From Takakia lepidozioides (lineage: Eukaryota > Plantae > Bryophyta), in the NCBI GenBank assembly GCA_030704615.1, contig CM060734.1, positions 15,190,001 through 15,254,000 on the forward strand: a stretch of 64,000 nt of DNA, written 5' to 3'. The notes under the pieces were generated by a model. That model searched no databases. It saw nothing but the letters and a program-made list of their open reading frames with translations, and was not told the origin of the DNA. Of the stretch, positions 1-43,931 are shown in pieces. Within the stretch, counting starts at the first letter, position 1. Each line of letters starts with the position of its first letter. A program made the position numbers and the translations under genes.

Positions 1-46
1 CCACGAGTTCAGGCGAGGACATGAAGCAGAGATTGAGGAGTGGAGG

Positions 47-2254
47 ATGTATTGGTCACCTGACTACGTCTCCATTACTCGAGGCACGACGCGACCAGTA
101 GCTGCATCAGTACCAATAGCTCCCACTGCCAGCACTAGTAGTGGAGCAAGTAGTGCTGGTACTTCTGCAGGTGGTACCAGTTCAAAAGGTGCTACTACTC
201 CTCCTGCCACGACTACAACACATGTGCCTAGATTCAACCCGGTGGTGGAGTTCTTCCAGGAGTTGCGGAGGAACTACCAAGGTGTACGGACAGAGAAGCT
301 GCGAAGTTTGCAAGACTTCCAGCGCAAACCCAGTGAGAGCCTGCGAGAGGCGTACACTCGTATGAGGCGCTTGATAAGTGTGACCCAAGGGGTTACTGAA
401 GCTCAGGCAATCCAGTTTTGGTATGGAATTCTGGACAAGGAGCTCAAGAGAAGGGTGCGAGATGCAACCCTGTTACAAGCAGCCCAACCCACATTAGCAG
501 ATGTGTTTCTGCTGGCTGAGCGGATTGAGCTCAACATGGTGGAGGAGCGAGTTGTTACAATTGGATTTGGCAAGGACATGCCTGCACGAGGCGCAGCTGC
601 CAGCCCACAGGCACAAGGGACTGCCCAACAGCGTGGTCAGGGGGGCAAGGTTGCCCAGCCCAAGTTCCATGGAGCTTACAGGGGACCTCAGGTGCAGAGG
701 CCCGTGGCATCTTTTGCAGGCCAACAGCAACCAGGGGTGATATGTTGGACATGTGGAGGACCCCATGTCAAGAGAGATTGCCCAGAGAGTGGCAAAAGGC
801 CGGCACAAGCACAGCCTGCACAGTTGCAGTGTGGGCATTGTGGCAAGTATGGGCATGGAGATGCCCAGTGTTATGACTTGCATCCTGAGTTGCGCCCAGG
901 CCAGTTCCAAGGGAACAATGGTGGCCGGGGGCGAGGTGGACCAGCCCAAAGAGGACGAGGTGGTCGGGCACGAGGTGCAGGCCAAGGGCAAGCTCCACAT
1001 GGCCAAGGACGCGGAGGTCAGGGTGTTGACCAAGGCATGGCCAATCGGCTTCAGCAGCTAGAGCAGAGGCTCGCTGCCATGGCTATAGCTCAGGCGGTAC
1101 CGGCTCCCAGGCGGGATGGTCCACCTCCTGCTCCTGAGGGAGGAGATATGGGAGGCATGGGATTCATGTGCGGAGCAGCACTACCACTAGAGCAGGTGGA
1201 GTCTGCTGCAGCCGTGACTCGAGGAGCAGCACGAGTTCCTGAGCCACGAGGTGCAGAGGTGGAATTGGATCCACAGCGTGGGGAGGCAAGCCGTCAGGCG
1301 AGGCTTCCTCAGTCATTCACATTGGCGGAGACTGTGTCGACGCCATCCATGGCACCTAGTTCTCGCCCGACTGTTACCGAGGCGGAGGTTACTATGCCAT
1401 TGGGGAGAGCTACACGTGCAGCACTGACACCTGCTACCAAGGCTAGTGCAGCCGGTGTGTTATTGGGGGCAGCCACCTCTGTGTGTCAAGCCCCACTGTT
1501 CTCGGCAACCATGATTGCGACGCCGGGGGTAAGACCAGCTGCAGTGTTCAGACTAGCAGCAACACTCTGTGAGAGTGGGGAGGTCACTTCATCTTCTGCG
1601 GAGTTAGTGGAAGGTGTAGTGGCAGAGGGATCCTCGGATTTGAGGGTCAAGACTGCCACGGCTGCGCCCTGGCAAGCTGCAGCTGCCAGGTTGACGGAGC
1701 TGCCAGCTAGGCCAGCCTTTGAGCGCGCCATGGTGACACCTGGAGTTGTCTTGTTAGACAACCAGGGAGGCATTTTCACTTTGAGTGGACCGGCAGGCAA
1801 GAAGTACCGGCCACTGCGGGTCTTGTTGGACTCGGGAGCTCAGCCACTGATGTTGGGCAGAGCTGCTATTGCAGGTTTGGGCCTCATGGAGGCGGATATG
1901 GAGCCTTGTCCTTTCCAGATACAGACATCTCTGGGAGGATCAGAGCAGGCTCGGGGCATGACACGGCATCAGTTGGCCATTAGACTGCAGCCGGATCATC
2001 CTATCGATGGCTCAGTAATGCGAGCCAAGGCCATTGTGACAGACGCGGTCTCTTACGATGTCCTCGTTGGTGGGGCAGTGTTATACCCCATGGGCTTCAC
2101 CCTGGACTTTTGGGAGGAGTCAGCATCCTACAGGCCTGGATGGCAGTCAGGGGATGGTCGCCGTGCACAGCTCCCTGTGACATTCATTGGGGGTATTAGC
2201 GGCTGCCCAGCGGGGCAAGATGCCAACACTAGCCGCCTTTACAGCTGCAGTTAG
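47..2254 (+). CDS. Gag with zinc knuckles plus aspartic protease of the gypsy element (frameshifts into the DNMT frame near 2190)
   Basis: Gag-like helical region (EKLRSLQDFQRKPSESLREAYTRM), knuckles CWTCGGPHVKRDC and CGHCGKYGHGDAQC, RGG-rich tract, protease active site VLLDSGAQ and flap-side motif YDVLVGG. Confidence 0.85.
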   Translation: MYWSPDYVSITRGTTRPVAASVPIAPTASTSSGASSAGTSAGGTSSKGATTPPATTTTHVPRFNPVVEFFQELRRNYQGVRTEKLRSLQDFQRKPSESLREAYTRMRRLISVTQGVTEAQAIQFWYGILDKELKRRVRDATLLQAAQPTLADVFLLAERIELNMVEERVVTIGFGKDMPARGAAASPQAQGTAQQRGQGGKVAQPKFHGAYRGPQVQRPVASFAGQQQPGVICWTCGGPHVKRDCPESGKRPAQAQPAQLQCGHCGKYGHGDAQCYDLHPELRPGQFQGNNGGRGRGGPAQRGRGGRARGAGQGQAPHGQGRGGQGVDQGMANRLQQLEQRLAAMAIAQAVPAPRRDGPPPAPEGGDMGGMGFMCGAALPLEQVESAAAVTRGAARVPEPRGAEVELDPQRGEASRQARLPQSFTLAETVSTPSMAPSSRPTVTEAEVTMPLGRATRAALTPATKASAAGVLLGAATSVCQAPLFSATMIATPGVRPAAVFRLAATLCESGEVTSSSAELVEGVVAEGSSDLRVKTATAAPWQAAAARLTELPARPAFERAMVTPGVVLLDNQGGIFTLSGPAGKKYRPLRVLLDSGAQPLMLGRAAIAGLGLMEADMEPCPFQIQTSLGGSEQARGMTRHQLAIRLQPDHPIDGSVMRAKAIVTDAVSYDVLVGGAVLYPMGFTLDFWEESASYRPGWQSGDGRRAQLPVTFIGGISGCPAGQDANTSRLYSCS

Positions 2255-3791
2255 TTGGCCTGGAGAGTTGCTGGAAGGCAATGCCCATGCAGAGGATGTG
2301 CCACCTCCAGCAGAGCAGGATGACATGCATGGTATGGCGGAGTTGCCTGCCATGGTTGCTCACACTCCATTGTGGGGTACGAGCAAGGATTTGCAGCAGG
2401 TTGCTGATCGACGGGTGCAACAAGCCTGGGTAGAGGCTTTTGTACCGTCAGGAGAGGAGGAGAGTGCGGGTATTGCACCAGGACCACCTCAGTTGTCACC
2501 ATTGGATACCACACCTATTGTGTGGCAGTATCCGGATGAAGGCATTTGCCTTCTGGACTTGTTTGGCGGGATCAGCACCGGATTGGCTGCTGTGCTACAG
2601 GCAGGTGTGCGGGTAAGGCGTTACCTGTATGTGGAGAGGGATGAGACTGCACGACGCGTCTCACTGCGCCATGTTGCTCAGTTGGTACAGCAGTACCCTG
2701 CTTTGTTGCCAGTGTCTGCAGTTCGTGGATACCAACAAGCCTTGCCAGCAGACATTTCGTTGCTGGGGGCGCCGGATTTGGAGCAGGTTGGCTCCATTGA
2801 TCTGGTAGTGGCAGGTTGGCCCTGCCAAGGGCATTCATCAGCCGGGCATGGCAATGGATTGCGAGACTCGAGGACGGGTCTGTTTTGGGAGATGGTGCGG
2901 ATTTTGCGCCACTTGCAGCTTCATCAAGCTGTATCTCCAGCATACATCTTGGAGAATGTGCCACTGATGGGTGATTCTCGGGCCAGGGTGATGGCCAGTG
3001 TGCATCAAGTCCGGTCGTGGCTTGGGTCAGCAGTGTTGCTGGATGCAGCTGCAGTGGGATCACGGGCTCATCGTCCACGGCTATGGTGGACTAACTTGAT
3101 GCCACCCGCACTGCTCAAGCGTGCATTTGATGGGGTGCAGCGGCCAGCACACCTCACCGTGGATGGCATTTTGGACACAGGGAGGCAGTCTCAACGTGTG
3201 AGACACGATGACCGTTCGCCTTTGGCAGTGGTCAACAGGGTGGGTCAACCACGAGCAGCATTACCTACACTGCTCAGCTTCCCAGGATCCCATGCTTTTC
3301 GGGATGGTGGACCTGGCCTCCTGTGGGATGCTCAGTTGCAGCAGTTAGTGGAGCCTAATGCCGACGAGCGAGAGCGGGCTATGGGGTTTTCCACTGGGAC
3401 CACGGCGGTGCCTTCTCTTTCTGAGGCATCACGTCGTCAGGTGTTGGGGCAAGCAATGGATCTCAATTGCTTGACCTGGATTATCAGCTTGGCTATGGCT
3501 GAGCAACGTAGAGTGCGGAGTGCACTTCCCTTGATGGTCTCTCTGCCTACCGAGACGGTACAGGCAGCGAGTGGGGGCGAGCCGGTGAGGACCACGGGGT
3601 GTAGACATCCATGGCACACGTGGGAGGTGCTCGAGGTTCAGAGGGAGTTGGCAGCCAAGGCAGCTGTGATGGATGAGGTTGGGGATTCTTCTCGGGATGA
3701 GGAGGTTCTCAATGATGAGATGATGGGGCAGGATGAGGCCTTGTCATTGACTGAGCAGGAAGGGAGTACTGCTCAAGAGGTTGCAGCATAG
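2187..3791 (+). CDS. DNMT3-like C5-cytosine DNA methyltransferase domain within the retrotransposon pol
   Basis: Motif I LDLFGGIS (~2553-2576), motif II YVERD, motif IV VAGWPCQG (catalytic Cys codon 2823-2825), motif VI YILENV (Glu 2952), motif VIII AHRPRLWWTN, motif IX ERERAMGF, motif X RRQVLGQAM. Same reading frame as RT, separated by a single TAG at 3789-3791. Confidence 0.93.
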   Translation: MGVLAAAQRGKMPTLAAFTAAVSWPGELLEGNAHAEDVPPPAEQDDMHGMAELPAMVAHTPLWGTSKDLQQVADRRVQQAWVEAFVPSGEEESAGIAPGPPQLSPLDTTPIVWQYPDEGICLLDLFGGISTGLAAVLQAGVRVRRYLYVERDETARRVSLRHVAQLVQQYPALLPVSAVRGYQQALPADISLLGAPDLEQVGSIDLVVAGWPCQGHSSAGHGNGLRDSRTGLFWEMVRILRHLQLHQAVSPAYILENVPLMGDSRARVMASVHQVRSWLGSAVLLDAAAVGSRAHRPRLWWTNLMPPALLKRAFDGVQRPAHLTVDGILDTGRQSQRVRHDDRSPLAVVNRVGQPRAALPTLLSFPGSHAFRDGGPGLLWDAQLQQLVEPNADERERAMGFSTGTTAVPSLSEASRRQVLGQAMDLNCLTWIISLAMAEQRRVRSALPLMVSLPTETVQAASGGEPVRTTGCRHPWHTWEVLEVQRELAAKAAVMDEVGDSSRDEEVLNDEMMGQDEALSLTEQEGSTAQEVAA

Positions 3792-5918
3792 CAACCACGG
3801 GACGCGTCCTCTACCTCTAAGCCCACTGGACTTAAGGTTGCAGTTACGGAGGACAATTGGGAGCCTGACATTGGACCCATTGTCACCGGAGGAGAGAGAC
3901 GACGTATACGGCGGTTCCTGAGGGCTTACAGGAATTGCTTTGCCTTCAGTTTGAAGGACTTGGGAGCACTGAAGGGTCAAGAGATCCGTATTGAGTTGGC
4001 CACTGACACGCCAATCTTTCGGAGACCCTATAGATACAGTGACATGGAGAGGTCTTTGATTCAGATGAGGACTCAAGATCTCTGGGAGGCAGGTTTGGTG
4101 GAGCTCTCTGGTGGAGAGTATGCTTCAGCCACAGTGATGCCAGCCAAGAAGGATGTCTATGGCAATTGGACGGAGAGACGTATGTGCGGTGATTACCGGC
4201 CTGTAAATCGTCAGACCAAGTCCGATAGGTATGCCATGCCGACACCAGAGGAGATCTTTGATGCCATTGGGCATTCCAAGGTCTTTAGCACGTTGGATTT
4301 ACGATCCGGATATCACCAGTTGCCGATCAAGGAGGCGGATAAGCAAAAGACGGCATTCTGGGGGATCAATGAGCACGGGAAGGATTGCCTATACCAGTGG
4401 CGGTTCTTACCATTTGGGCTTAAAAACGCTCCCGCTGAGTTTCAAAGAGTCATGGACAGGATTCTAGCAGGGGTGGAGTTTGCTCGGTGCTACATAGATG
4501 ACATCATCATCTTTAGTGCTACGGTGGAGGAGCATGAGAGACACCTTCAGGGGGTATTTGAGCGCTTGAGGACGCACGGATTGAAGTTACATCCGGGCAA
4601 GTGCAAGTTTTTCCACAACCAGATTGAGTATCTGGGTCACATGATATATCCTGGAGGATTGGGGGTACAGCAGACTAAGGTAGAGTCCATTGCACAGGTT
4701 CCACGCCCCACGGATGTGAGCCGAGTTCGAGCTTTCATGGGGTTAGCAAACTATTACAGACGGTTTGTTAAGGGATTTAGTGCCATTGCAAAGGCTCTAA
4801 CCAAGCTGACCAAGGTGGACCAGGAGTGGCAGTGGGAAGATGAGCAAGAACAAGCTTTTCAAGAGCTCAAGGCGAGGTTGACCTCGGCGCCCATCTTGAG
4901 ACGACCTATCAGGGGGCGTCCTTTTCAGCTGCATACAGATTGGAGCGGCTAGCTTAAGCACTACACTCTCTTGATGATCCACCTATGTGAGCACCGCTCG
5001 AAGCCCAATGCTGCAGAGTCTAAGTATAGCTCATATGAGGGAGAATGCTTAGCTGCAGTGTGGGCCGTGGCACACTTCAGGTGCTATCTATACGGCAATC
5101 TCTTCACCCTTGTCACGGATCACCAACCACTCAAGTGGTTGATGGAGTCAGACAAGCTTACGGGGAAGCTTGCACGGTGGGCACTCATCCTTCAAGAGTA
5201 TGACTTTCAGGTGGTGCATCGACCGGGTTTGGTCAATCGCAATGCAGATGGGTTGAGTCGCAATCCATGCACGAGCCAACAGGATGACACTGGAGCTCGG
5301 TGGCATGGTGAGACGGACGAGGAGATGGTGCCCGGATGGCATGCATCTGCATTTCTGTGTATCTTGGCAGCGGAAGGCCAGGTTGGACCTGCAACAGGGA
5401 TGACTGTAGATCAAGTGTCTGAGGACCCTGAGGCCAGCAATGAGCAAGGTGGCGCCAAAGATATACATGAGGATTCAGTTGTGTTGGACTACCTCCGCAC
5501 TGGAGACACTGCAGCCACTGTGACTGCCAAGGAGAGGGATCGGATCCTACAACGAGCCAAGAGGTTCAAGTGGGAGGGGACACACCTGCTCCGAGTGTGG
5601 GAGGATGGTCGAGTGAGGATTGTGCCTCACCCAACACAGCGGGCACGGTTAGTGCGGCATGCCCATGAGGAGTTGGGGCATTTTGGGGTGCGACGCACTC
5701 ATAGTCTACTGCAGGGGCAGTATTGGTGGCGTGGTATGCACACAGAGGTGCAACAATTTGTGGCTAGGTGCATGGTGTGTGACAGGGTGCGTGCTTCATT
5801 CAACGCCCCTACTCCACAATTGCATCCTCTTCCGATCATGGGATTGGGCTACAGGTGGAGTCTTGACTTCGCAGGGCCATTGCCACTGACCATGCGCCAC
5901 ACAAGTACGTGTTGGTGA
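3792..5918 (+). CDS. Reverse transcriptase, RNase H and integrase zinc finger (interrupted near 4950-5005)
   Basis: [41 protein letters not shown]; RNase H LHTDWS, SYEGECLA, TDHQPL, NADGLSR; HHCC HAHEELGH...CMVC; integrase WSLDFAGP. Confidence 0.93.
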
Positions 5919-6726
5919 TGGTGGACACTTCTCCAAGTGGATTGAATTGGTTCCATTGCCTGATAAGGCTAGTGAGGGAGCTGCGTATGCATTCTTGGAT
6001 TGTGTGCTTAGCCGATTCGGTGCTCCAGCTGAGGTACTCACGGACCAAGGGAGAGAGTTCTTGGGGGAGTTTCAGGCTTTGTGTGACAAGGCCTTGATAG
6101 ACCACCGCACCACTTCTCGGGATCATCCTGAGGCCGATGGCTTGGCAGAGAGAGTTGTTCAGACAGTAAAGAGGGGTTTGCGCAAGTATGGCTTGCAGAA
6201 GGGACACCTAGGAGATTGGGACCTTCAGTTACCCTGGTTAGCCATGGGCTACAGGTTCAGCAAGCAAGCATCACTTGCCTCCTTCTCACCATACTTTCTT
6301 CTCTTTGGCCGAGAGCCGGATTTGCCTACATCCATTCGCAGAGAAGCTGCTACAGTTCTTAACCTTGACGATCCGGACGTGTGGGCACGTGCATGTGAGC
6401 AGCGTGCAGAGTTGTTCAAGAGAGTCATGCCCATGGCTTTCGAGAACCTTGCCATTGCACAACACCGTGATACGTTGAGGTATGCTACCATACGTGGTGG
6501 GGGCTATCGTCCTGGGGTTCGGAGATTCAACCCTGGTGACTATGTCTATCTGCAGCAGACTGCTCCTACGACCCTGGATGTGACTGCAGGACGTGTTATT
6601 TTGAGGGTTCGAGAGGTCTTGCCTTCAGGCGTCTTGGTCTTGGAGGGTCGGGATGGCATAACTTGGAAGGACCATGTGCGTAATTGTGCGCCATGTTCAC
6701 CTTCCGAATGTCGATGGCAGGATTGA
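5909..6726 (+). CDS. Integrase catalytic core and C-terminal region (small frameshifts at ~5900-5930 and ~6697)
   Basis: VLTDQGREF and DGLAERVVQ complete the DDE triad; WDLQLP and SPYFLLFGREP are also present. Confidence 0.9.
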
Positions 6727-6760
6727 CCCAAACCTGGCAGTGGTATCTGCAGGTTTGAGG

Positions 6761-6895
6761 TGCATGTTGTGTGGGTCTGCTAAAGGGGCAGCCACCATGC
6801 TGGTGTGTGATCGATGCTCTAGAGGTTGGCATATGGGATGCTTGACTCCACCTCTTGAGATGGTTCCGGATGGGGATTGGTTATGTCCACATTGC
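6761..6895 (+). CDS. PHD finger at the integrase C-terminus (in ORF 6674..7063)
   Basis: C4HC3 pattern CMLC...MLVCDRC..GWHMGCLTPPLEMVPDGDWLCPHC. Removing one T at ~6697 joins it to the integrase frame (CAPCHLPNVDG). Confidence 0.9.
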
Positions 6896-7164
6896 ATTGG
6901 ACAGTGGGAGTGGATACAACCATGGAAGGCTAACAAGAAACGCAAGGTCCAGCTACTAGGAGACCTTGAACACACGAGGTCCTGGCTCAAGTTCACAGAT
7001 TGCAAGACGGCGACTAACGATGGGGCTACTCTTGTACCCGGCCTCTTGGTCTATAGAGTTTGAGTGCAATAGGGGCAGTGATAGAGGACTTAGTACGGCT
7101 GTGGCTATTACATCTTGTAGCTATCTGGAGGTAGAGGGACCTACCCACCAGCTAGGGGGGCGAT

Positions 7165-7692
7165 TGTGGCAGACTACTTTATTGTGCATATATGTGTGGT
7201 GTGGTTTGGACAGCGATGTAGTTGTGTAGCGATATGTATGCGCACGACAGCTGTCAAGTTAAATAAGCACAATGTGAAAACAACTAGAATAAAACTAATT
7301 ATTTGTATTTAACACTTGGATTTAGATCAAGTGTTAAATCAGGTGTCAAGTTTAGTTTGACACCTGGTCCGTCTTATCTTCACGAGAGCGGCAGTCGCGC
7401 GGCTCATCTCTCTCGAGTTGAGCCTGCGCGACCAAGCTCCTTCATTCTTCAGATCTGAGTGTGCTTATGATGGGAGTGTAGGTCGTTGTGGGGTGGAGTC
7501 CCCATAGCTTGGGGTGCCCCTGGCTCGACTATTATTCAAAGAGTGATGTTGAGGGATTTCATATTTCTGGTGTTGAGAGTGTGTGTCCTTTCAAGCTTTC
7601 TTATCATTGTGGCAGACTACTTTATTGTGCACATATGTGTGGTGTGGTTTGGACAGCGATGTAGTTGTGTAGCGATATGTATGCGCACGACA
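7165..7692 (+). repeat. Probable 3' LTR of the DNMT-gypsy, with an 85-bp direct repeat at both ends (7165-7249 and 7608-7692)
   Basis: Begins TG right after the PPT and ends GACA. The two 85-bp copies differ at one visible position (gcatat vs gcacat). Confidence 0.7.
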
Positions 7693-7738
7693 AGAGCTTA
7701 GAGTTCAGTACGTGATCGTCCTTGGGATTGGCCTCATC

Positions 7739-10700
7739 ATGGGGTCGGGCAAGCCAAAGCGAAAGCGGAACGGCCCAAAAGATGATGATCCTGGTGAGCC
7801 TGATGGGGGCGACGTGTCACCGAAACGGCCGTTTGAGGAAGCGACGCAGGTTTCTGAAAGCGAGGCCGCTCAAGAGCGGGAGGAATCCGAGGAGTTGGAG
7901 CCCGAGGAATCCGTGAGAGCTCTGACCGACCAACAGATGCCTCCCATGCCGGCAGCCTTTTGGGAAGGGTTGTTGGCGCAGTTTGGCGGGACGTTGAAAG
8001 ACGTGTTGAAGGCGGCTAATGCCACTTCCACTAAGGCAAAGTTTAAGGTGAAGCCTAAGGAACCCGGCACCTTCGAGGGCGTCCAAAATCGGAAGGCACT
8101 CAACACCTGGCTCCTGGAGCTAGAGCAGTACTTCCGGGCGGCCAAGTTGAGTGACGAGGATCGGGTGGAAGTGGCTCCAATCTATTTGAGGGGCTATGCT
8201 CAACAATGGTGGCAGAAACGCCTTCACGACCGAGATCCAAGCCCGGAAACCTTGGACTGGAGTGGGTTCAAGGAATTGATGAAGAGACAGTTTGTGCCCC
8301 TCAACGCGTCCTGGCTTGCCCGGGACAAGATGAGGAATTTGAAGCAAACAGATGACATTCGGGGGTATGTCCAAGCTTTCAATGTACTGTTGCTCGAAGT
8401 CGCGGACATGGCAGAACCAAAAATGGTCTTCAACTTTGTGGCGGGACTGGCCCCATGGGCCAGGCGGAAGTTGGAGGAGAGGCCACCCAAGACTTTGAAC
8501 GAGGCAATTGAGAGGGCTGAATGTTTCTCGGATGTCCCTAGGGGTGAGAGACAAGGCCGTACGGAGCTGAACCACAAGAAGACCCGGCGGGAAGGTGACT
8601 CCTCCCGGCCGGAAAAGAAGTGGGATAGGCCACGCGGCGACAATGGCACGTGGAAATTGAAGGGAGGGCCTTCACACGTCAAGGCGGCACCCGGTGCTTC
8701 GAAAGGAAAAGCGGGTGGAGCGGCTTATGGCGGATAGAAGGCGACCTTTGATGGAGTCTGTTTCAATTGCGGGGAGCCCGGGCACATGGCCAAGAAGTGC
8801 ACAAAACCTCGACAATTGAACATGACTCGGGCAACGACGGAGCTGTCGGAAGATACCATCAGTCGCTTGGTGGAAGCGGTGGTTGCCAGGACTTGCAAGG
8901 TAGGCAACTATTCTTGTGAGTTGTATCAGGAAACTGGCGCCCTGCGTAAAGGGAGTCAGTTATTGTTCGTGGATGGGATAATATCCGAAACTAACGTGTC
9001 GTTGTTGGTGGACACAGGAGCGTCGCACTCCTTCATGACGCCGGCGGCGGCGCGAAAGTTGGGACTCCCGACAAGTGACGTGGGGGCCTCTATTGAGGTG
9101 CGTTCTGCCAAAGGAGAACCACAGTTGGCGACAAGGTTGGCGTTTGATGTTCCTCTTCAACTGGGGAGTTGGGAGGGACGTGAGAACTTCACCATCTGCG
9201 AGATCGATGGAGTGGATCTCATTTTGGGGATGACCTTTTTGAGCAAATCCGGAGCGGTCATAGATGGCCGCAAGAGAGTAGTCACGCTGCCATGTGGGAA
9301 TGGTGGCGAGGTTTTACGAGTGTCGGAAACGCCCAAATCCGTGGGAGGGCGAATAAACCTTTTGTCAGCAAAGGAGTGGGCCGTGGAGGAGGCACACGAG
9401 CCCCAATTTTTGCTTTACATTAGAGAAGTGAAAGGAGAAGGCGATGGGGAGCCGAGCCCAGATTGGATCAAGGGGATTTTGGAGAAATACCAGGATCTGA
9501 TGCCGGAGGATTTACCAAGCGGCTTGCCACCACGAAGAGGAGTTGACCACAAGATTGAGGTGATACCGGGATCGGAACCGCCTGCCAAGGCGCCCTACCG
9601 GTTGAGCCACAGAGAGTTGGTCGAGCTGAAGACTCAGCTCAAGGATCTAATGTCAAAGGGGTATATCCGGCCGAATAAGTCACCTTACGGAGCCCCGGTG
9701 TTATTTGCAGACAAGAAGGATGGGACGCTGCAGATGTGTGTCGATTACAGGGCTCTGAATAAGGTGACTATAAAAAACCGGTACCCTTTGCCAAGGATCG
9801 ACGACCTCTTCGATCGGTTGGCAGGAGCGAAGTATTTCAGCCGGATCGACTTACGCTCCGGCTATCATCAAATTCGGGTGGCGGAAGGAGATGAGGAGAA
9901 GACCGCGTGCAGGACAAGGTATGGTTCATATGAGTTCTTGGTGATGCCTTTTGGGCTCACCAATGCACCAGCGACATTTAGCACGCTGATGAACAGCCTT
10001 TTCCAGGAGTGGTTGGATGACTTTGTGATCGTGTACATCGACGACATCTTGGTGTACTCGAAAACAAAGGAGGAGCACCTGGAGCACTTGAAAAGGGTGT
10101 TCCAAAAATTGCGAGAAGGGAAGCTGTATGCCAAAGCTTCAAAGTGCGAATTCAGGGTCACAAAAGTGGAGTTCCTGGGGCATGTGATTACACAGGATGG
10201 GATCAAAATGGATGACAGAAAGGTGAGGGCGATCTTGGACTGGGAGCCTCCGACTTCGGTCCCGGGAGTGCGATCCTTCCTAGGACTCGCCTCCTATTAC
10301 CGTAAGTATGTGAGAAATTTCGCCAAGACCGCTGTCAGACCTTATGTGTAAATCTAAAGTCTGGGCATGGAACACCTTTTGTGGCCAAGCTTTTGCTGAA
10401 TTGAAGCAGCGGATGGCGGAAGCTCCAGTCTTGAAAATCCCGGAGTTCGATCGTCCATTTGAGATTCATACAGATGCGTCGGACTTCGCGATTGGGGGTG
10501 TACTTATGCAAGATGGACGTCCAGTGGCTTACGAAAGTAAGAAACTGAATGAAGTGGAGCGACGGTGGCCGACGCACGAAAAAGAGATGAAGGCGGTGGT
10601 GCATTGCCTCGAGCTTTGGCGCCACTATGTTGGTTCCAACCCAGTGAAGGTGTTCACGGACAATGTCACGGTGAAGTATTTTGCCACGCAGCCCAAGTTG

Positions 10701-12291
10701 TCCCCAAAACAACTTAGGTGGCAAGATACTTTGGCGGTGTTCGACGTGGATATCCAGTACAAACCGGGATGAGACAACGTGGTGGCCGATGCTTTAAGTA
10801 GAAAGCAGCAGCTCTTGTTGGTGTACAAGGGCGAGACGGTGCTCCAAAGGAAGATCCGGAAGGCTTGCCGGAAGGATGAGCTGGCAAAGTCCGCGATGCA
10901 GGACTTGAGGATGGGGGTAAATCGCAGTTCCACTTGCAAAATGGACTGCTCCGGTATAAGCAAAAATGTCTCTACGTGCCGAAGGGAGGGATCAGAGATA
11001 GCCTCTTGAGAGAATGCCATGATAGCCCACTTGCGGGCCACGGCGGAGCCAAGCGCACTGCGTCACTCTTGAAGAAAGAGTATTTCTGGCCCAAACTGAG
11101 GGAGGAGGCAGAGGAGTATGTCAAGACATGCACCACATGCCAACAAAACCGGAGCGAGTACAAAAAGCAAGCGGGGCTGTTACAACCCTTGCCAATTCCA
11201 GAGGGGACTTGGGAAAGCGTCTCGATGGATTTCATGACTGCTATGCCGCTGTCAAAAGGATTCGATGCAATCATGGTGGTGGTGGATAGGTTCAGTAAAA
11301 TGGGCCATTTCATCCCCACCAAGGAGACGGCAACGGCGCAGGAGACAGGGCGACTTTACTTCGCCCACGTCTTAAAACATCATGGAGTCCCGAAGGATAT
11401 TGTCTCGGACCGCGATCCAAAGTTTACGAGTAAATTTGGAGGGCACTTTGGAAGAAGATGGGGACGAGGCTGAAGATGAGCACCGCCTTCCGACCTACAA
11501 CCGACGGCCAAACAGAAAGGGTGAATTCCGTAGTGAAGCAGATCTTGCGGAATTACATGTCGGCAGACCAAACAGACTGGGTGGAACACTTAGACGCGGC
11601 AGAGTTCTGTTATAATAACACTGAACACTCCGCAACGGGAGTTTCCCCTTTCGTATTGGTCTATGGAAAAGCACCTCTGGTGCCGACAAGTTGGGCCGCC
11701 CAGGACGTTGAGGAACCGGCAGTAGCGGCGGTACTGGAAGAACGCGAGCGTTTGTTGAAGCTCACAAAGTACAATATTGCCAAAGCTAGGAAACGGTATG
11801 AAAGGCAGGCGAATCGGAAGCGGAGGGAAGTGAAGTTTGAGGCAGGCACAGAGGTCTGTTTGAACATCAAGAATTTCCGACTATCTCCGGAAGTGAGTCC
11901 GAAGTTCATACCTCCGTATGCAGGACCCTTTCGCATTCGGAAGGTTATGAATGAGGATGTGTATGAATTGGAGCTGCTGGCAAACAGTAAGGTGCACCCA
12001 GTATTCCATGTATCCTTTTTGAAGCCTTACTTCAAAGATGAAGCGCGTCCGAATCGGCATCAAGTGTTGCGTCCACCACCTATGTTGTTGGATCATGAAA
12101 ATGAACCTGAGTACGAGGTGGAGGCAATACTTAAGTCGAGGAGGTTCAGGAACCGAGAAACGGAGTATCTCGTCAAATGGAAGGGCTATCATCATGTGGA
12201 GGCATCTTGGGTGCGTGCCTCAGAAATGGGAAACGCATCCGAGGCGGTTGCAGCTTTCGAAGGGCGACCTCAAAAGCAGAAGAAGCGTTGA
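7739..12291 (+). pseudogene. Chromovirus gag-pol with chromodomain; stops and frameshifts at 8735, ~10340, 10770, ~10930, ~11440
   Basis: Gag (KPKEPGTFEG, LRGYAQQWW), knuckle [14 protein letters not shown] in frame after the TAG at 8735, [40 protein letters not shown] integrase, chromodomain YEVEAILKSR..EYLVKWKGY..EASW (~12110-12230). Confidence 0.92.
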
Positions 12292-19113: not shown

Positions 19114-19226
19114 TCAGCCATTGAGGCAGCTCTTAGAATGGCGAACCCAGAAGATGACCAGACTGTCTCCACGCAGAAATCTACAAACACATCTGATATG
19201 TAAGTAATCACCCAATCCTTGGGCAC

Positions 19227-20372
19227 ATGATTTTACCGGATGAAGAAAAAGAGGCAGTGAGAGAATTCTGTGAACAAGTAGAAATCTCACAAGTGGAACA
19301 AGAAAGGGCAACAGGTGCCACTCCTGGAAATCTGCAATTTGTCCCTTGGTTGCCTCCCCGTGCAGTTGAATTAGAGGTTGCCAATAACGATCACATGATG
19401 TGGCACCCACATGCTAATATCAATTTATTGGCACCCATTTCTATTGAAATGTGGGTCAAATGGGGCAACATAACTCCTGCTGAACGGAGTAGGTGTGCAC
19501 AGGATGCTAAGGAGGGTTTTCAGAGAATAAAAAAAGAACCTATTGCTGTGGCATGGCCACTAAGGACCTTCTACTACAAGCTCTGTGACAAAGGTGAGAA
19601 CCTTACCTTGAGGACCAAAAATGACTTGCCGACTGGTTCGGCCAGATCCAAAAATCACAAGAGTCAACTCTTCAACTGGCATCGTCCCTACATAAGATGT
19701 AACTGTGGACAAGGAGGGGCACCCTCTTCTTGCATTGGGAGTGTTGCTTGGTTTGACCATATGGTATGGTATATGCTGAACAATCTGATTGTGTTCTTCC
19801 CTGATGATGCCTATCCTTCGGTGCAAACCAAGTATGACAGCTTTCTGGTATGGATCATGCGGGCTGCCAGATCTGCCGTTCTTGCACAAATTACCTTCCA
19901 GATGACCCGGGGCTTCATAATGGAAGCAGCTTGTGAATTCTCAATTGACCCCCAAGCCAAGTTGCTTGGGAAGTTAGGAGAATCCAAAGGGGCCAGATAC
20001 ATTGAGAAACTTGTGAAACCTGGGTCTTTTTCAGACAGCCTTCCCAGGCCACAATTCAACAGCTACAAACGGCAGCGTATGGAGGGGCAGACGCCTCCTC
20101 AACAAGGCAAGAACAATGCCACTCGAGGCAGAGGTACCCCTGGTCGTGGAAGAGGTCTCTACCAAAGAGGAGGACGCTCTGGCAGGGGGCAATACTCTAC
20201 CAACACCTCTGAGAATTCAAGAGCAACGAATCGGTCATCACTTGGGGGTTCGGGTGCTAATTCCAGTACCACCATCAACATCGCCAGCCAGGAGTCATAC
20301 AAGACTCGTCGTATCACTGACGAGTTCTCCCCAATACGCAAACGAGATTTTGGATCATGGACAGATCTTTAA
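19227..20372 (+). CDS. PLE ORF1 (5'-truncated), unknown protein with RGG-rich C-terminus
   Basis: Open in both copies (381 and 429 aa); contains RGRGTPGRGRGLYQRGGRSGRG. Confidence 0.7.
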   Translation: MILPDEEKEAVREFCEQVEISQVEQERATGATPGNLQFVPWLPPRAVELEVANNDHMMWHPHANINLLAPISIEMWVKWGNITPAERSRCAQDAKEGFQRIKKEPIAVAWPLRTFYYKLCDKGENLTLRTKNDLPTGSARSKNHKSQLFNWHRPYIRCNCGQGGAPSSCIGSVAWFDHMVWYMLNNLIVFFPDDAYPSVQTKYDSFLVWIMRAARSAVLAQITFQMTRGFIMEAACEFSIDPQAKLLGKLGESKGARYIEKLVKPGSFSDSLPRPQFNSYKRQRMEGQTPPQQGKNNATRGRGTPGRGRGLYQRGGRSGRGQYSTNTSENSRATNRSSLGGSGANSSTTINIASQESYKTRRITDEFSPIRKRDFGSWTDL

Positions 20373-22592
20373 AAATCTCATTTTTGGTATGTTCCTCTAC
20401 TTTGCATGTGCAGATGCGTTGTTTGGTCTTGAGGATGGTTGTAGACAAATTGAAACTCATGCCCATGGCAGGAAATTCATAAAACAGGCAGCAAAACCTG
20501 CTCCCTTGGGATTCATTCATATGTTGTACCCAAACCGTGGTATGGAGTGGATAAACCCTAGGAACATGATAAAAGAAGCTTTTTTGGAATTTGGACAAAA
20601 TGACTTGGCTATTCTCATCGATGAGATAGTCTTTGGATGGACATATCATAAACAAAGCAGCTCTGAATATTATCAGCCTGCTGCTGTTTTCCGTGATTTT
20701 TGCTTTATGCAAGACCTGATTCACTCACCAAATTGTCTATGTGACAGTGCCAAGAGGTTTCATGATTTTCGGGATGCGGATACAAAAACAGAATTCCATC
20801 TATCTGGTTCTATACCTACGCAACACGTACGTACCATGGACCTAAATATTATTAGACACGCAAGGCTGAAAGAACTATTCAGCCTAGGTATGAATCACAT
20901 CCCTCTCAAACGTACTTTGCTGAAAGACGTTGTTGAACAAGTGTCTCTAGCTTTCCATAGAACCTGTGAAATTTTGCATATAGACCCATGTGAATCTTGG
21001 GCAGCATCCTGCAGCCAATGGGTAAAAAACACATGCTGGGATAGATTGAAACAAAAAGCCGACAGAGGAAGGTACGACTTCACTCACCATGAGCGCAATC
21101 CTCTTACTGTAAAAGAGGCAAAAGATGAACTTTCATGGCTTCTCAATCACCTGTATTTTTCTGGTCTTGACACGGCTAACAACAATGTATGTTTTATGTG
21201 TGTGAAGCACATAAGAACTCAAGCCTTCCAAAGATTGATGGGTAAAGACTTTACACCATGCAAGCAAGCTGAGGTATGGCTGCCACCTGACCTTGTTCTA
21301 GGAAACATTTCCGTGGAAATACAGAGTCTGATTCCGGAGATACCTGCTCCCTCCTGTAGATTACCTTACATTATGGGAATCTACAAGCTACATAAGAAAA
21401 AATACAGATGGATTACCAATGCCCATAAATGTGTTTTCAGTGAACTTGCTAGCCTTCTTACAAGGGCTACCATGGATCTTCTACCATTGGTAAAAGAATG
21501 GGCCAAGACAAGGCTGGATACTTATGAGCAATTTTTCAAAGTATCTACTGCTATGTATTGGATTATTGATTCCATCACTGACTTTACACTAAACCTGCCT
21601 GAAAAAGTCCATAACATCTTTGTTGCTGGCATTACACAATGCTATGAGAACATACCTTTGACAGGACAGGATAACTTAGGGGACGCCATTGAATACGTGG
21701 TGAAGATTGCATTCCAACAACACCATCGGTCTCACCCCCGAGCACGTCATACTCTATGGATTCCAGCCAAAAACGGTACTTTCGGAAAAAGTAGATGGGG
21801 CACATCTTCCCCAAAATCAGGTACCTGGATTGAACTTTCTGAAGTCAAACTACTTATGCTCCACAAATGGCTTATGTCACACTGTTTTGTCGCCTTAGGG
21901 GACCGTGTATGGCAGCAGATTTCTGGAATACCTATGGGTTTTTCATGCTCACCATTATGGTGCAACATGTACTTCCTTTCTTATGAAATCAAATTCATCT
22001 TAAGGCTTGTAGCTTTAGGACAATTCCAGCTTATGCCTATGTTTAAATCTGCCTTCAGATACATTGATGATATATGCTGGCTAAATGTGGGTGATGCAAT
22101 GCTATTCCTGGACCCACGGGTAGACAGAAGCAGCAACAACCCTTGGTGGATCTACCCACTCAATGTAGTGGAGATCAAACCTGAGCTACTACGCACTAAA
22201 AACGATTCCCAATACGTGGGGTTGGAAGCTTGTTTCATGAATATCCAGATTACAGTCTCAAACTGTAACACAGGTGAGTTCCATTTCCAGAAATATGACA
22301 AGAGAAGACTACTTCCTTTCTCTTACACTCAATATATCCAGTTCTTATCCATAGGCCTGTGAATCAATCTTACAACATTGTGATTTCACAAGCTGTGCCT
22401 ATTCTATACATTTCCAGCAATGCTGATCTGGCTGGGAAGGAGTGTGGCATTCTGATTAACACTCTTGGGAGGAATGGTTTCAAGACCAGAAAACTTGCTC
22501 GTATCTTGACAAAATTCCTTGAACGTGGTTCATTCCCTGGCCCGCTCTTCCCTGTACAAGAGCTTATTGAGAAACTGAAAGGTATTTTCTAA
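20116..22592 (+). pseudogene. PLE reverse transcriptase ORF2, copy A (1-bp deletion at ~22350; DKA>DTA and ADIT>AGIT changes)
   Basis: CLC...HVRTMDLNII..LKELFSLG linker, D(K/T)ANNN, PYIMGIYKLHK, QQISGIPMGFSCSP, FRYIDD, YDKR. Confidence 0.88.
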
Positions 22593-24599
22593 AAACCTAT
22601 ACAGAGCTATGTTATACCATTGAACTCTACATTCTTTTCTAAGTGATACTATACTAGTGTTGCTATGATACATTTTATGCCATCATTTCATTCTTGATCC
22701 GAGGAAGTGAGGATGTAGGATTCTACTCCTTTGGATAAATATTATCTGAGGATAGAACTACATGGAAGAGGGAAAACCTTATGAGAAGAGGTCTGGTATG
22801 CACTCCCTTACGGGGTGAGTGCATACCACATTTACTCCGTAAGGTTCTGCCATGCCAGGGGATTGGCTGGTGGGTCCCTCTCTCTCCCTCTCTCCCTCTC
22901 CCTCTATAAATCTTTGGATTTCATCTGGCCTTAACCTTTTGAGGTTATTTAGTTTTTCATCCCTGCCTTTTTCATCCAAATCTGGATGATTTTATTTTAT
23001 TGGATGATGAAACTTAATATACAGAAAGCTAGAGTTACCATCTATTTTTTTCATCTAAACTGGATGATCTACATAAATAATGGTTACCTATTATAAAATC
23101 CAAGAGAATAATAAAACTACCATCATAAATGATGGCAGTTATTAAACCTAAACCTATACCATAACCCTAAAAGATACATGTCTATGGGATGTCATCTAGT
23201 GACAAAATGCCTATCTTGGTAAAATGTGATATTTCATCCATCCTGGATGAAAAATCGGGAAGTTTTGCCCTAAGCAGGCCGACACACTTCAAGCACTGAA
23301 CTCGTGCTTCAGTGAACCTTGATGATGCGCCGTATAAACCTGCTCCCCTGTTGCTACATGGTACTCGTGATTGCTGGCTCTTGGGATGCGCAGTGGTGGT
23401 TAAGCAGATTCTTCTATGGCAGACGACAAAGCCGTGATTGCTCTGATCAGGAACTCATGGTTCTTTATTTTGCAGCGGCGCTTTTACTCCTTGTTGGGAA
23501 GTACTCTATCCCTATTTATCTATAGATTACTTGTTGCTCTCTCTTCGTGTATGAGCCACTCTCTAGCTGTGAACGCTTCTACTCTGATTGCGTTCTGTTG
23601 GAGACAATCTGTTGGACGCCATGGCGCAGGGCATACCACAAACACTCAAGGTTTTTTGAGTTTACCATTGCTTGAATTGTGATCTGTACTTGCTTTAGAA
23701 TTCAACACTGCCACTTACCTGCTGCATCCTCACTAACACACATCGCTATGTGGTGGTTTTTGGGACGGGCACAGGTGAGGGTCTTCACTTGTCTTGATTT
23801 CTTGAAGCTTGCAGTTCCTGTTCTTGCAAGTGTGGATACTGCTGCTGCCTAAGCTGCTGATGTCATCTGCTGTTTCAAACTGCCACCATGCCGCTTCAGA
23901 CCTGCTCCAAGATTGCTCCAATGAGGATCTGCTTCTCTCCTTACCCCTGTTTACGGTTTTTTACAACCACATTTGCATGTGTAGGAGTTTAGCTATGAAG
24001 GATACAAGGATACAAAATAGCAGTTATTACTTTGACTGCCTTGATACTTGGCTCTGAAATGAGAACTCTTGGTATGACTCTGATGGATCAAAAGGATAGG
24101 CTTTGATAGATAACACACATTCTTCAAGGCCCTCATATCATTTTGGTTTCATGGCTTGATAACAAACTGGGGTTTCTGAGCTGCTCTTTCACCTTGGCAG
24201 AACTACTTTATGTGGCCTTAAAATACCATTCTAGGCCTATACCTGCTTAAGGGGGCTCTACACTGTTGTTTCTTCTTCCTTTTTAAGAATCTTGCTTATA
24301 TCTTGGTTCTAAAACATCATCTTCAAACCAAACCTGCAATCTGGTTTTTGAAATGAGTTTAAAATGGATTCTTGAGATGATGTGTACTATGGTGCTTTTA
24401 TGATATGAATGACCTGGAATCCCACCCTCCCGCCCTGTTTTTTTAGAGACCCTGAAATGTAATTGGGTATTCAAATGAGATTGTAAACATGAAAGAGAAT
24501 GTTAGATGGTGCCCTGTAAAGGGCTGTTTTGTCTTTCAATGACAATGACCTTAGCGGTCTTGTCCATGTCTTGACATGACATGTATATCTTCCCTCTCT

Positions 24600-26395
24600 C
24601 CAACTACTTGTTTGGGATTATCAATTTTTTTCCATAATACTTATTTTGGAAATGCTATATATTTTTAATCCCAATTTTTAATCCATACTGGATGAAATTT
24701 CTGTTATAACCATAAATGGATGATTAATAGGCAGATATGCATTTCAATGCATTTTAGGTTTATGCTCCTTTGATTTAAACCTATTGAATGCCCATTTTTC
24801 ATCCTGGTCTGATACCATCCATACCAGATGGTGGATGAAATCGCGGGTGGTTTTCCTTTAAGTGTCTCTCTGCCCTAGACACAGCACGATATCGTGCGTG
24901 TTTTTTTTCTCTGGAAGAGGGCGATGGCGGACGAATGCTCGATGGCGGCTGAATGCCCGAGCAGCAAGATCCAAATGGGTGTGTTCTTGTTTTTTGAACG
25001 TGCGATGACGGCAGACACTTTCATCTCCCGCGATGGCAAATGACATACTGTTGTGTTTGCCTACGTTTTTTCCTCATTGATGAAGCAGCGGCGGTTATGG
25101 AGGTGGGGAAGCGGCCTGTATTACAAGATACAACTTGTCCTCAACTCTCCTCCTGTTGCATTCTGTTGTGCTCGTTCAAATTCAGATGATGAACACTCCA
25201 GCGTCCTACTCCACAAAAGATTGAGGTTCTTTGTGGTGTCACATCTATGCTTTCTTCTGCTAGTTCTGTGATCTTTGCATGCTTTATGGCTCATACCTGA
25301 CATGGATAGCAACTGTGAAATCCTGTAATTCACCTCGCGCATCCTCACTAACGCACAAAACATTTTTTGTGTTTGTTTTTTGGACGGGCGCAGGTGAGGG
25401 ATTTCACTTGGCATGAACTCTTTGGCTTGCAGATGATCTGGTTACTGCAGGAGGGATAAGATATGATGCAAGCTGCCGTTGTTGCAATTTTCTGCTTCAA
25501 GGGGGATATGTCTTAAACCTTTACTTTGATTTCTGGTTCTTGGTAACCAAATCTGTTAAGTCAGGGAAGTAAATGGGCTGGTCTTCCTAGAAATCAGACC
25601 TTATTGTGAAGGTTCGGGCTGGTTGTGATGACAAGGGTTTGGTGGTGCAAGTGTGACATTGGATGCATTTTTCCAGACCTATTTCTGGCCTTTTGGAGAG
25701 TCAGACAGTGCTGTTTATGCCTCACCAGTTTAGAATGTATTAAGTAAGGCATTGGGTAAGCCTTTTTAAGAACACATACATTCTTTCAGGCTCCCCCACG
25801 GAGATAGCTTACAACATACTTGTTTAAGCTTTTTGAACCCAAGAATTACCAAGCCAGTATTTTTAAAGGGCTTTTTTGATTATGAACTGTATTCTTAAGC
25901 TCCCCCCAGAGATTGGGAATGTGACATGGTAATGACTTACGGGTTTTTGTATGATCATCACAGCATTTGCCCTCTGTTTGGTTGTTGTAAGCCACTGGAA
26001 CACGTACAGCTCTTATTTAAAACTCAGTATGTTTTAAATAAAGTGGTTCAGACTTTGATTGATTGACTGTATGCAAACGTGCATATATTCTTCAGAACCC
26101 TACATGCTCATGATATGTGTTTGTTTTTTTAGAAGACCCCACCCTCCCACCCTATGATTTCAAGAACTTTGAAATCCAGTCTCTTTTATTTAAGATGAAC
26201 TATTTATGGAGGGGAAGTGTTAACATGATGATATAAGGATACCTTGTAATTTAAGGATCTTTTTTCTGGGATTGTACATGTAAGGAGATGTTTGACAATG
26301 CCTTGTAATGAGGCTGCCATGTCATTTTTCTTGACAATGACTTTTACTAAGTCTTGTCTATGTCTTGACATGACATGAATATCTTTCCTCTCTGA
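24600..26395 (+). repeat. Divergent relative of the PLE pseudo-LTR, in tandem behind copy A
   Basis: Shared blocks: ctgacatggatagcaactgtgaa (~25297), catcctcactaac (~25340), gacgggc.caggtgagg (~25383), ccaccctccc.ccc (~26139) and the terminal cttgtc.atgtcttgacatgacatg.atatctt.cctctct (~26353-26392). Confidence 0.7.
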
Positions 26396-37940: not shown

Positions 37941-38039
37941 GGCTCATGACATGTAATATTTTAATGTATTTTAGCTCCTCATAGACATTAGGGTTCGTGG
38001 GTTGGCAAGTTGATTTCGGCTAAGTGTTAGGAGAGGGAG

Positions 38040-43920: not shown

Positions 43921-43931
43921 TGGTAAAATTA

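What the first reader, a model, noticed from the sequence alone, without database searches (positions are those of the whole stretch)
6674..6895. PHD finger in place of a chromodomain on the integrase, predicted unmethylated-H3K4 type
Seen: a C4HC3 finger at the position where chromoviruses carry a chromodomain (compare ~12110-12230 in the neighbouring element). The residue two before the zinc-binding His is Gly (CSRGWH), not the cage Trp of H3K4me3 readers. Inference: an H3K4me0 reader that steers integration to silent chromatin. Paired with a DNMT3-like domain, this parallels the ADD plus MTase logic of animal DNMT3, assembled inside a transposon.
Basis: partly seen in the sequence, partly recalled or inferred. 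Interest (0 to 1): 0.72.

Follow-up and report, generated by a model that had tools for sequence, protein, structure and literature searches.

The report
PHD-tipped integrase of a methylase-carrying retrotransposon
A broken copy of a plant jumping gene that carries its own DNA methyltransferase ends in a genuine PHD zinc finger, which in related elements is fused to the integrase and likely grips the tip of histone H3 to help choose landing sites, a partly described arrangement rather than a new kind of system.

Summary
The C4HC3 PHD finger is real (6761-6895) and has Gly two residues before the zinc His. In this copy it is out of frame with integrase. Other copies in the species lack the break, and 112 of 120 relatives carry integrase and PHD in one polypeptide. 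The element matches KnitGypsy-Dnmt3 (DNMT3-like domain, B-A-B right end), and a Gypsy polyprotein with a PHD is published for Chlamydomonas. The scan noted this three times before on other DNA. No relative has the cage Trp (0 of 139), and the best structural matches are unmodified-H3 readers. But this subclade lacks the acids that read K4 in KDM5A-PHD1 (14 of 16), so it is better predicted as a weak H3 N-terminus binder than a strict K4me0 reader. The ADD-methyltransferase parallel is poor: the two domains lie about 1,000 residues apart, each can be missing alone, and here a conserved TAG-CAR stop (likely readthrough) separates them. Not found in my literature searches: that stop, and a green-algal sister clade that adds a Tudor-like domain and an adenine-type methyltransferase fold after the PHD. 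Verdict: new variant of a known kind; targeting untested.

The parts
2..2254 (+). Gag (5' end outside the window) with zinc knuckles and aspartic protease (LLDSGA), frame 2
   Evidence: PF03732 weak, E=0.0036; the protease region matches relatives that carry PF13650/PF13975; frame change near 2196-2198 is absent from some other copies
2538..3530 (+). DNMT3-like C5 cytosine methyltransferase; motifs I (2556), IV PC (2814), VI ENV (2952) and VIII (3072) present
   Evidence: PF00145 E=6.7e-13; best PDB match DNMT3A E=7e-11, above DRM and HhaI; motifs
3789..3797 (+). In-frame TAG followed by CAACCA (fits CARYYA) between Gag-PR-DNMT and RT: likely programmed readthrough
   Evidence: TAG-CAR at the homologous site in 15 of 34 loci (15 of the 21 closest); background 2.6%
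3792..4952 (+). Reverse transcriptase and start of RNase H, followed by a lesion near 4946-5006
   Evidence: PF00078 E=5.4e-33; contigs of other copies break alignment at 4946-5006
4953..5918 (+). RNase H remainder, integrase HHCC zinc domain and first catalytic Asp
   Evidence: PF17917, PF17921
5890..6696 (+). Integrase core and C-terminal domain (frame 1; frame change near 5900-5925)
   Evidence: PF00665 E=1.9e-08; indels in other copies
6697..6760 (+). Conserved linker between integrase and PHD, after a one-base frameshift near 6696 in this copy
6761..6895 (+). C4HC3 PHD finger without aromatic cage; H3 A1 pocket and R2-binding Asp kept, K4-contacting acids absent
6896..6904 (+). End of Pol: nearly all other copies stop at 6902-6904; the longer tail to 7063 belongs to this copy
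   Evidence: depth 13,467.6 of 13,492.9 in X1; all depth in X5, X6, X8
7150..7692 (+). Purine-rich tract and right terminus B (7165-7249) - A (7252-7607) - B (7608-7692)
   Evidence: 87-nt repeat at 99%; same layout in complete relatives
7693..12291 (+). Neighbouring chromodomain-bearing Gypsy element (Gag, PR, RT, RH, IN, SH3, Chromo at about 12112-12264); not part of the element, used as comparison

Best explanation
The stretch is the C-terminal PHD finger of the Pol protein of a decayed Gypsy-DNMT3 retrotransposon; in intact copies it is fused to integrase and likely binds the unmodified N-terminus of histone H3 (A1-R2-T3), which would tether the integration complex to nucleosomes and likely bias insertions away from heavily modified promoter chromatin. 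Shown: the finger, the family-wide fusion, purifying selection, the missing cage, the kept A1/R2 residues and the missing K4 acids. Inferred: H3 binding (about 0.75), a role in site choice (about 0.55), strict K4me0 selectivity in this subclade (about 0.35). The DNMT is a separate module. It is likely made with Gag upstream of a leaky stop and likely methylates the element's own cDNA (the role proposed by de Mendoza et al.), without control by the PHD.
For: PF00628 44.4 bits. PHD in the same polypeptide as the integrase core in 112 of 120 best relatives, a median 93.5 residues after the core. Other copies in the species lack the frameshift and end Pol just after the finger. pN 0.15-0.27 against pS 0.53-0.83 over the linker and PHD in 15 loci picked for an intact finger. 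H-2 is Gly in 125, Ala in 12, Tyr in 1, Pro in 1 and Trp in 0 of 139 complete fingers. The D312 equivalent is Asp in 131 of 139 and the W335 equivalent Trp in 132 of 139; both are critical for H3 binding in KDM5A-PHD1. The 60 PDB sequences shown of 82 matched are led by CHD4, PHF12, KDM5B/A PHD1, ATXR5, DPF3, PHF21A, BAZ2A/B and UHRF1; ING and BPTF are not among them. The same slot holds a chromodomain in the neighbour. Chlamydomonas Gypsy-7a_cRei has a PHD in Gag-Pol and 2.6-fold excess intergenic insertions (PMC9940879 passages).
Against: No binding or insertion-site data exist for this family. The closest 16 fingers lack acids at all four K4-side positions in 14 cases, and their mean net charge is +2.1 against -4.5 in the algal clade, so H3 affinity may be low. 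The Gypsy-7a bias may be due to selection (the authors say so), and I did not show that Gypsy-7a belongs to this lineage. Eight of 120 relatives had no PHD hit, most of them truncated. Among 80 genomic loci only 15 kept integrase and PHD in one reading frame, 52 had a broken link, 7 had no PHD and 6 ended too early; these are mostly decayed copies.
Confidence: 0.58

Rival explanations
1. One reading: a strict H3K4me0 reader that works with the DNMT3-like domain as ADD does in animal DNMT3, coupling silent-chromatin recognition to methylation.
For: No cage Trp (0 of 139); DNMT3A is the best PDB match of the methylase; both domains occur together in streptophyte and chlorophyte elements. In the algal clade the DNMT sits directly upstream of integrase, so a DNMT-IN-PHD product is conceivable (45 proteins RT-RH-DNMT-IN-PHD).
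Against: K4-reading acids are absent in the window's subclade. RT, RNase H and integrase lie between DNMT and PHD, and an in-frame stop separates them in the window and 15 loci. A PHD without detectable DNMT occurs (P0084, P0429), as does a DNMT without a PHD hit (P0302, P0304, P0415). The DNMT changed position between clades while the PHD stayed after integrase. In the algal clade motif IV reads PC in 15, EC in 26, AC in 2 and was unmatched in 21 of 64.
Confidence: 0.12
2. The finger is a general tether or protein-interaction module of the integrase (DNA, nucleosome surface, a host factor or integrase assembly), not a reader of H3 marks, at least in the land-plant subclade.
For: The near subclade has turned net basic (+2.1) and lost the D292/E305/D306/D315-type acids. 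PHDs on transposons are common and of undefined function (PMC8557442, PMC6673714 passages).
Against: The H3 A1 pocket (P331, G333, W335 equivalents: 15, 14 and 16 of 16) and the R2 Asp (15 of 16) are kept in that same subclade.
Confidence: 0.22
3. The PHD is a passenger or a decayed chance capture with no role in the element.
For: It is out of frame in this copy, and most genomic loci are broken.
Against: Fixed position in 112 of 120 relatives from volvocine algae to liverworts; pN well below pS; in frame in other copies of the same species.
Confidence: 0.03

Closest known systems
KnitGypsy-Dnmt3 / streptophyte Gypsy-DNMT3 (de Mendoza et al. 2018, PMC5890265; passages and section 9 read, 3 supplementary files searched)
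   Same: Gypsy Pol with an intronless DNMT3-like domain; DIRS-like split repeats (A-coding-B-A-B); K. nitens proteins fall in the same integrase clade.
   Different: The paper's text and searchable supplements do not contain 'PHD' (Fig. 4c itself not visible). It describes a charophyte alga, whereas relatives here include Marchantia, Calypogeia, Sphagnum, Coleochaete and chlorophytes. K. nitens P0052 has DNMT and RT in one frame; the window has an in-frame TAG-CARYYA.
Gypsy-7a_cRei of Chlamydomonas reinhardtii (PMC9940879; passages read) and REM1 (Perez-Alegre 2005; not held, known from citations and recall)
   Same: Gypsy element with a PHD finger in Gag-Pol, LTRs in subparts, a proposed role in avoiding harmful insertions.
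   Different: No DNMT is listed for Gypsy-7a (Pfam also missed it in Pleodorina P0064). The position of its PHD and its lineage were not checked. In REM1 the PHD is in an antisense ORF (recalled).
Chromoviruses (REXdb, PMC6317226; passages read)
   Same: A chromatin-reader domain at the integrase C-terminus.
   Different: A PHD instead of a chromodomain; RT is distant from the neighbouring chromovirus (123 against 439 bits); the RT tree does not resolve the relation.
KDM5A/B PHD1, ATXR5, BAZ2A/B class of PHD fingers (10.1101/715474; passages and section 13 read)
   Same: No aromatic cage; A1 pocket (L309, P331, G333, W335) and D312 conserved.
   Different: D292, E305, D306 are Ala, D315 is Ser, L308 is Met and L310 is Val in the window.
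EpiLTRs / DAM-LTRs (bioRxiv 10.64898/2026.05.21.726589; passages and section 7 read)
   Same: LTR elements with a reader plus methyltransferases; the algal sister clade found here has a DNMT3-like domain, a PHD and an adenine-type methyltransferase fold.
   Different: EpiLTRs have a chromodomain and a DNMT sister to DNMT4; 'PHD' occurs once in that text, as a fellowship. The window's own element has no adenine methyltransferase.

Membership tests
PHD finger | Cys4-His-Cys3 pattern with the Trp before Cys6; Pfam PF00628 above cut-off | tested here: met
H3K4me3-reading PHD | Aromatic cage with Trp two before the His (position recalled from BPTF/ING) | tested here: not met
   Gly at 6824; Trp in 0 of 139 relatives
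Unmodified-H3 PHD (KDM5A-PHD1 class) | H3 A1 pocket and R2-binding Asp | tested here: met
   L309, P331, G333, W335, D312 equivalents present
Unmodified-H3 PHD (KDM5A-PHD1 class) | Acidic K4 pocket (D292, E305/D306 equivalents) | tested here: not met
   Ala at all three in the window; no acid at 292/293/305/306 in 14 of 16 nearest, 0 of 20 other clade-A and 19 of 103 clade-B fingers
Unmodified-H3 PHD (KDM5A-PHD1 class) | Measured preference for H3K4me0 | not testable with these tools
   needs a binding assay
Gypsy-DNMT3 (KnitGypsy-Dnmt3 type) | Gypsy domain order PR-RT-RH-IN | tested here: met
Gypsy-DNMT3 (KnitGypsy-Dnmt3 type) | Intronless, unrearranged DNMT3-related domain with catalytic motifs | tested here: met
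Gypsy-DNMT3 (KnitGypsy-Dnmt3 type) | DIRS-like repeat layout A-coding-B-A-B | tested here: met
   Right end B-A-B in the window (left end outside the window); full layout in 6 of 48 loci of 7 kb or more
Gypsy-DNMT3 (KnitGypsy-Dnmt3 type) | Phylogenetic grouping with K. nitens elements | tested here: met
   52-row integrase clade, SH-aLRT 96, holds the window, P0052, P0040, P0094 (quick tree, midpoint root)
Gypsy-DNMT3 (KnitGypsy-Dnmt3 type) | DNMT in the same open frame as Pol | tested here: inconclusive
   Same frame but separated by TAG in the window; open in P0052, P0152, P0018, L051, L072
Chromovirus | Chromodomain after integrase | tested here: not met
Chromovirus | RT branches within chromoviruses | tested here: inconclusive
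   Only 3 related chromovirus RTs available, tree unrooted
Animal DNMT3 ADD-MTase module | Reader directly N-terminal to the catalytic domain and regulating it in cis (recalled) | tested here: not met
   The PHD is C-terminal, about 1,000 residues downstream, beyond RT, RH, IN and a stop

The most novel reading that the evidence does not exclude
A green-lineage-wide Gypsy clade is a self-contained epigenetic machine. A PHD-tipped integrase docks on unmodified H3 tails to pick silent or intergenic chromatin. A DNMT3, set at Gag-like abundance by a leaky UAG-CARYYA stop in the land-plant branch, pre-methylates the cDNA. The chlorophyte branch has moved the DNMT next to integrase and added a Tudor-like domain and an adenine methyltransferase, making a third EpiLTR lineage that may include the lab-active Gypsy-7a_cRei, where targeting could be tested directly.
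Probability: 0.3. Interest if true: 0.72.

Novelty: new variant of a known kind. Interest (0 to 1): 0.42.

Why it matters
Chromodomains are the established example of a retrotransposon reading histone marks to choose sites. PHD fingers on transposons have been noted for twenty years, and my searches found no binding or targeting test. This family offers many natural variants, with a clean contrast between acidic (algal) and basic (land-plant subclade) fingers, so the question becomes testable with one small domain. It also extends methylase-carrying retrotransposons to named liverwort and moss proteins; a 2019 review stated that such elements are absent from land plants such as tracheophytes (PMC6338049). 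The copy itself is dead.

Tried and rejected
No whole genome is held, so insertion-site context could not be surveyed. No RNA holder was listed on record; X6 is only a guessed RNA run, so nothing is said on expression. The protein atlas gave no answer. A Foldseek search of the three-domain model returned integrases only in the rows shown. The RT tree could not place the lineage against chromoviruses (the careful search did not finish). No 3' hairpin signal after the TAG: z from -0.92 to 0.01 in 8 sequences, mononucleotide shuffles. Reinitiation at a nearby ATG is not conserved (Met at codon 3 in three loci, codon 85 in the window). Whether all copies in this species keep the TAG at 3789 is inconclusive: no variant there among the 40 of 286 rows shown. 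Sanchez and Zhou 2011 and the REM1 paper are not held; a term search of PMC6979384 gave no hits. The Gypsy-7a sequence could not be checked: the supplement was cut when stored. A sequence look-up in earlier scan findings gave nothing. Rejected: chance Cys pattern; host gene next to the element (lies inside the termini and is fused in relatives); H3K4me3 reader.

Full report
OBSERVATION. Frame 2 of the + strand holds a full C4HC3 finger from Cys at 6761 to Cys at 6893-6895, with His at 6830. Pfam PF00628 scores 44.4 bits, E=1.6e-11. The residue two before the His is Gly. The stretch 6674-6760 is linker. The integrase core is read in frame 1 (5890-6726), so in this copy the finger is out of frame by one base near 6696. 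The neighbouring element has integrase, an SH3-like domain and a Chromo domain (PF00385, about 12112-12264), so the positional comparison holds.

THE ELEMENT. Bases 2-7692 are the right-hand part of one decayed Ty3/Gypsy element: Gag with zinc knuckles and protease, a C5 methyltransferase (PF00145 E=6.7e-13), RT, RNase H, integrase and PHD. The methylase keeps motifs I, IV (PC), VI and VIII, and its best solved relative is DNMT3A (E=7e-11). The right end is B-A-B (7165-7249, 7252-7607, 7608-7692). Six of 48 loci of 7 kb or more show the whole A-coding-B-A-B layout, four of the six with a 4-bp target duplication read by eye. De Mendoza et al. describe Gypsy domains, a DNMT3 and DIRS-like repeats for KnitGypsy-Dnmt3 (PMC5890265; passages and section 9). 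The copy is dead, with breaks near 2197, 4950, 5900-5925 and 6696. The host is unknown. The nearest named relatives are Calypogeia (81%), Coleochaete (79%) and Marchantia (73-75%), so a spore-bearing land plant is my inference.

IS THE FUSION REAL? Yes, at family level. The integrase search found 254 longer relatives and listed 120. With my own profile, 112 of these 120 carry the PHD in the same polypeptide, a median 93.5 residues after the core; most of the other 8 are truncated. In four sequencing runs the family is multi-copy, and contigs without the 6696 shift occur in all four: 23 contigs in X1 (depth 3,076 of 11,614), 3 in X5 (394 of 819), 2 in X6 (all depth) and 1 in X8 (all depth). Nearly all copies stop at 6902-6904, so the finger is the C-terminus of Pol. 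X1 may be the window's own source sample. Against this, of 80 metagenome loci only 15 kept the link in one frame; 52 were broken, 7 had no PHD and 6 ended early, as expected of decayed copies. Over linker and finger, pN is 0.15-0.27 and pS 0.53-0.83 in 15 loci chosen for an intact finger.

WHAT WOULD IT BIND? Of 148 PHD hits, 139 have the full pattern. At the cage-Trp position (position recalled) they have Gly 125, Ala 12, Tyr 1, Pro 1 and Trp 0. The PDB search matched 82 sequences; the 60 shown are led by CHD4, PHF12, KDM5B/A PHD1, ATXR5, DPF3, PHF21A, BAZ2A/B and UHRF1, and ING and BPTF are not among them. The gap-free alignment to KDM5A-PHD1 allows residue mapping. Kept: the A1 pocket (L309, P331, G333, W335) and D312, which is essential for binding. 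Lost: D292, E305 and D306 (Ala) and D315 (Ser); L310 is Val. In KDM5A, D292A and E305A each lower affinity for unmodified H3 about 6-fold and affect K4me2/3 binding less, and loss of D315 also hurts binding (10.1101/715474 section 13). The loss is specific to the window's subclade: no acid at 292/293/305/306 in 14 of 16 nearest fingers, 0 of 20 other clade-A and 19 of 103 clade-B fingers, with mean net charge +2.1, -1.1 and -4.5. My inference: not an H3K4me3 reader; probably a weak binder of the free H3 N-terminus; strict K4me0 selectivity doubtful here and more likely in the algal members.

THE ADD-METHYLASE PARALLEL. The integrase tree (158 rows, quick method, midpoint root) separates a 52-row clade A (SH-aLRT 96; window, liverworts, Coleochaete, Klebsormidium) with DNMT between protease and RT from a 100-row clade B (support 86; Volvox, Pleodorina, Tetrabaena, Chromochloris) with DNMT between RNase H and integrase. 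The PHD stays after integrase in both. Some elements have a PHD and no detectable DNMT (P0084, P0429), and some a DNMT and no PHD hit (P0302, P0304, P0415). In the window an in-frame TAG CAACCA separates the DNMT from RT. Of 34 loci with a match to this region, 15 have TAG-CAR at the homologous site: 15 of the 21 at 50% identity or more and none of the 13 more distant; 3 are exact CARYYA. Background is 2.6% for CAR and 0.23% for CARYYA over 10,787 TAG triplets. The loci are related copies, so this is a few independent observations. UAG-CARYYA is the plant-virus readthrough signal (PMC4132726 passages). Against universality, P0018 (near clade), P0052, P0152, L051 and L072 are open there. If readthrough is real, the DNMT is made at Gag level and IN-PHD at a fraction of it, and the protease would likely separate them further. 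This is unlike the one-to-one, adjacent ADD and catalytic domains of animal DNMT3 (recalled). A direct contact could not be modelled.

REPLACEMENT OF A CHROMODOMAIN? Only position is shown. The element's RT scores 123 bits against the neighbour's RT, versus 323-328 for two chromodomain-bearing loci and 439 for self. The RT tree leaves the relation open.

MECHANISM. Most likely: Pol is made (by readthrough in this subclade) and cleaved, and integrase keeps the PHD at its C-terminus. The finger binds H3 A1-R2 on nucleosomes and tethers the integration complex, with at most a modest bias against H3K4me3 chromatin. The DNMT acts separately, probably on the element's own cDNA as de Mendoza et al. 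proposed. The anatomy is shown; binding, targeting and readthrough are inferred. The only in vivo hint is Gypsy-7a_cRei, which has a PHD in Gag-Pol and 2.6-fold excess intergenic insertions that may reflect targeting or selection (PMC9940879 passages); I did not show that it belongs to this lineage. That this copy seems to sit in another retrotransposon is a single case.

WHAT IS KNOWN. Gypsy-DNMT3 is published. PHD fingers are called widespread in retrotransposons (PMC6673714, PMC8557442 and bioRxiv 2021.11.30.470311 passages). The scan's own notes hold three earlier reports of this same PHD-tipped Gypsy-DNMT3 on other genomes; they agree but are not independent evidence. 'PHD' is absent from the de Mendoza text and its 3 searchable supplements (figures not visible) and from the REXdb paper's text. 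Ten literature searches showed no description of the DNMT3 plus PHD pairing, of the TAG-CAR stop in these elements, or of clade B. The library lacks most subscription papers, theses and Repbase, and supplements of the bioRxiv preprints were closed, so these may be recorded elsewhere. PMC12344493 (passages) only restates the 2018 result. PMC6338049 (part 1 of 4 and passages) says transposon methylases are absent from land plants such as tracheophytes; named Marchantia and Sphagnum proteins carry the domain.

SIDE RESULT. Clade B continues after the PHD with about 350 conserved residues (58 tails of 250 residues or more): a weak Tudor-like match and an amino-methyltransferase domain (PF02086 in 9 of 18 below cut-off; phage DNA methyltransferase phrog_799 in 6 of 18; model pLDDT 88.6, METTL5 Z 13.8 and M.TaqI Z 13.6). 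It resembles the EpiLTR idea of the 2026 preprint (passages and section 7) but with a PHD and a DNMT3-like domain. A shared fold does not show the substrate.

VERDICT. Real feature, partly described family, new variant. Interest 0.42.

Noticed in passing
window 3789-3797; L002-L005, L010, L012-L014, L016, L018, L021, L023, L025, L026, L033: Conserved in-frame TAG followed by CAR between Gag-PR-DNMT and RT (exact CARYYA in the window and 3 loci, CAACCY in 12), the plant-virus readthrough context. It lies after protease and methylase, not after Gag. The loci are related copies of a few subfamilies; more distant loci and K. nitens are open there.
   Followed up: yes
proteins P0046, P0057, P0064, P0077, P0279 and others (clade B; named members Volvox, Pleodorina, Tetrabaena, Chromochloris, Cymbomonas): Sister clade with order RT-RH-DNMT-IN-PHD-tail. 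The tail of about 350 aa has a weak PTM/DIR17 Tudor match (2 of 16) and an amino-methyltransferase domain: PF02086 in 9 of 18 below cut-off, SPWF/SPPF motif, model pLDDT 88.6, METTL5 Z 13.8 (rmsd 3.2, 158 aligned) and M.TaqI Z 13.6 (rmsd 3.5, 161 aligned); 1,010 representatives at E<=0.001.
   Followed up: yes
L012, L051, L059, L077 (also L057, L068): Complete elements with A-coding-B-A-B ends; 4-bp target-site duplications read by eye in 4 of 6, so these DIRS-like ends are inserted by integrase.
   Followed up: yes
window 7692-7740: The chromovirus Gag frame begins right after the element's right end, and its downstream non-coding DNA has no repeat in the window, so the DNMT-PHD element probably inserted into the chromovirus 5' region. 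One case; left junction not in the window.
   Followed up: partly
window 19190-24600 and 49954-56564: Two inverted copies (93-98% identical) of a retroelement-like unit with a divergent RT-like ORF (20017-22362; 50980-53557); class not determined.
   Followed up: no
window 38000-46700: Inverted, tandemly amplified and frame-broken repeats that read like plant PPR motifs (label from recall, no family search).
   Followed up: no
window 32200-34100 and 34464-37700: Fragments that read like a CACTA-type transposase and a further Gypsy gag-pol (labels from recall).
   Followed up: no
P0195: A very divergent relative with DNMT before RT and an atypical C-terminal PHD-like finger, suggesting the DNMT plus PHD layout is old.
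   Followed up: partly
P0227, P0185: Members of this eukaryotic retrotransposon family are annotated as bacterial proteins (uncultured Synechococcales; Minisyncoccia MAG), likely bin contamination.
   Followed up: no
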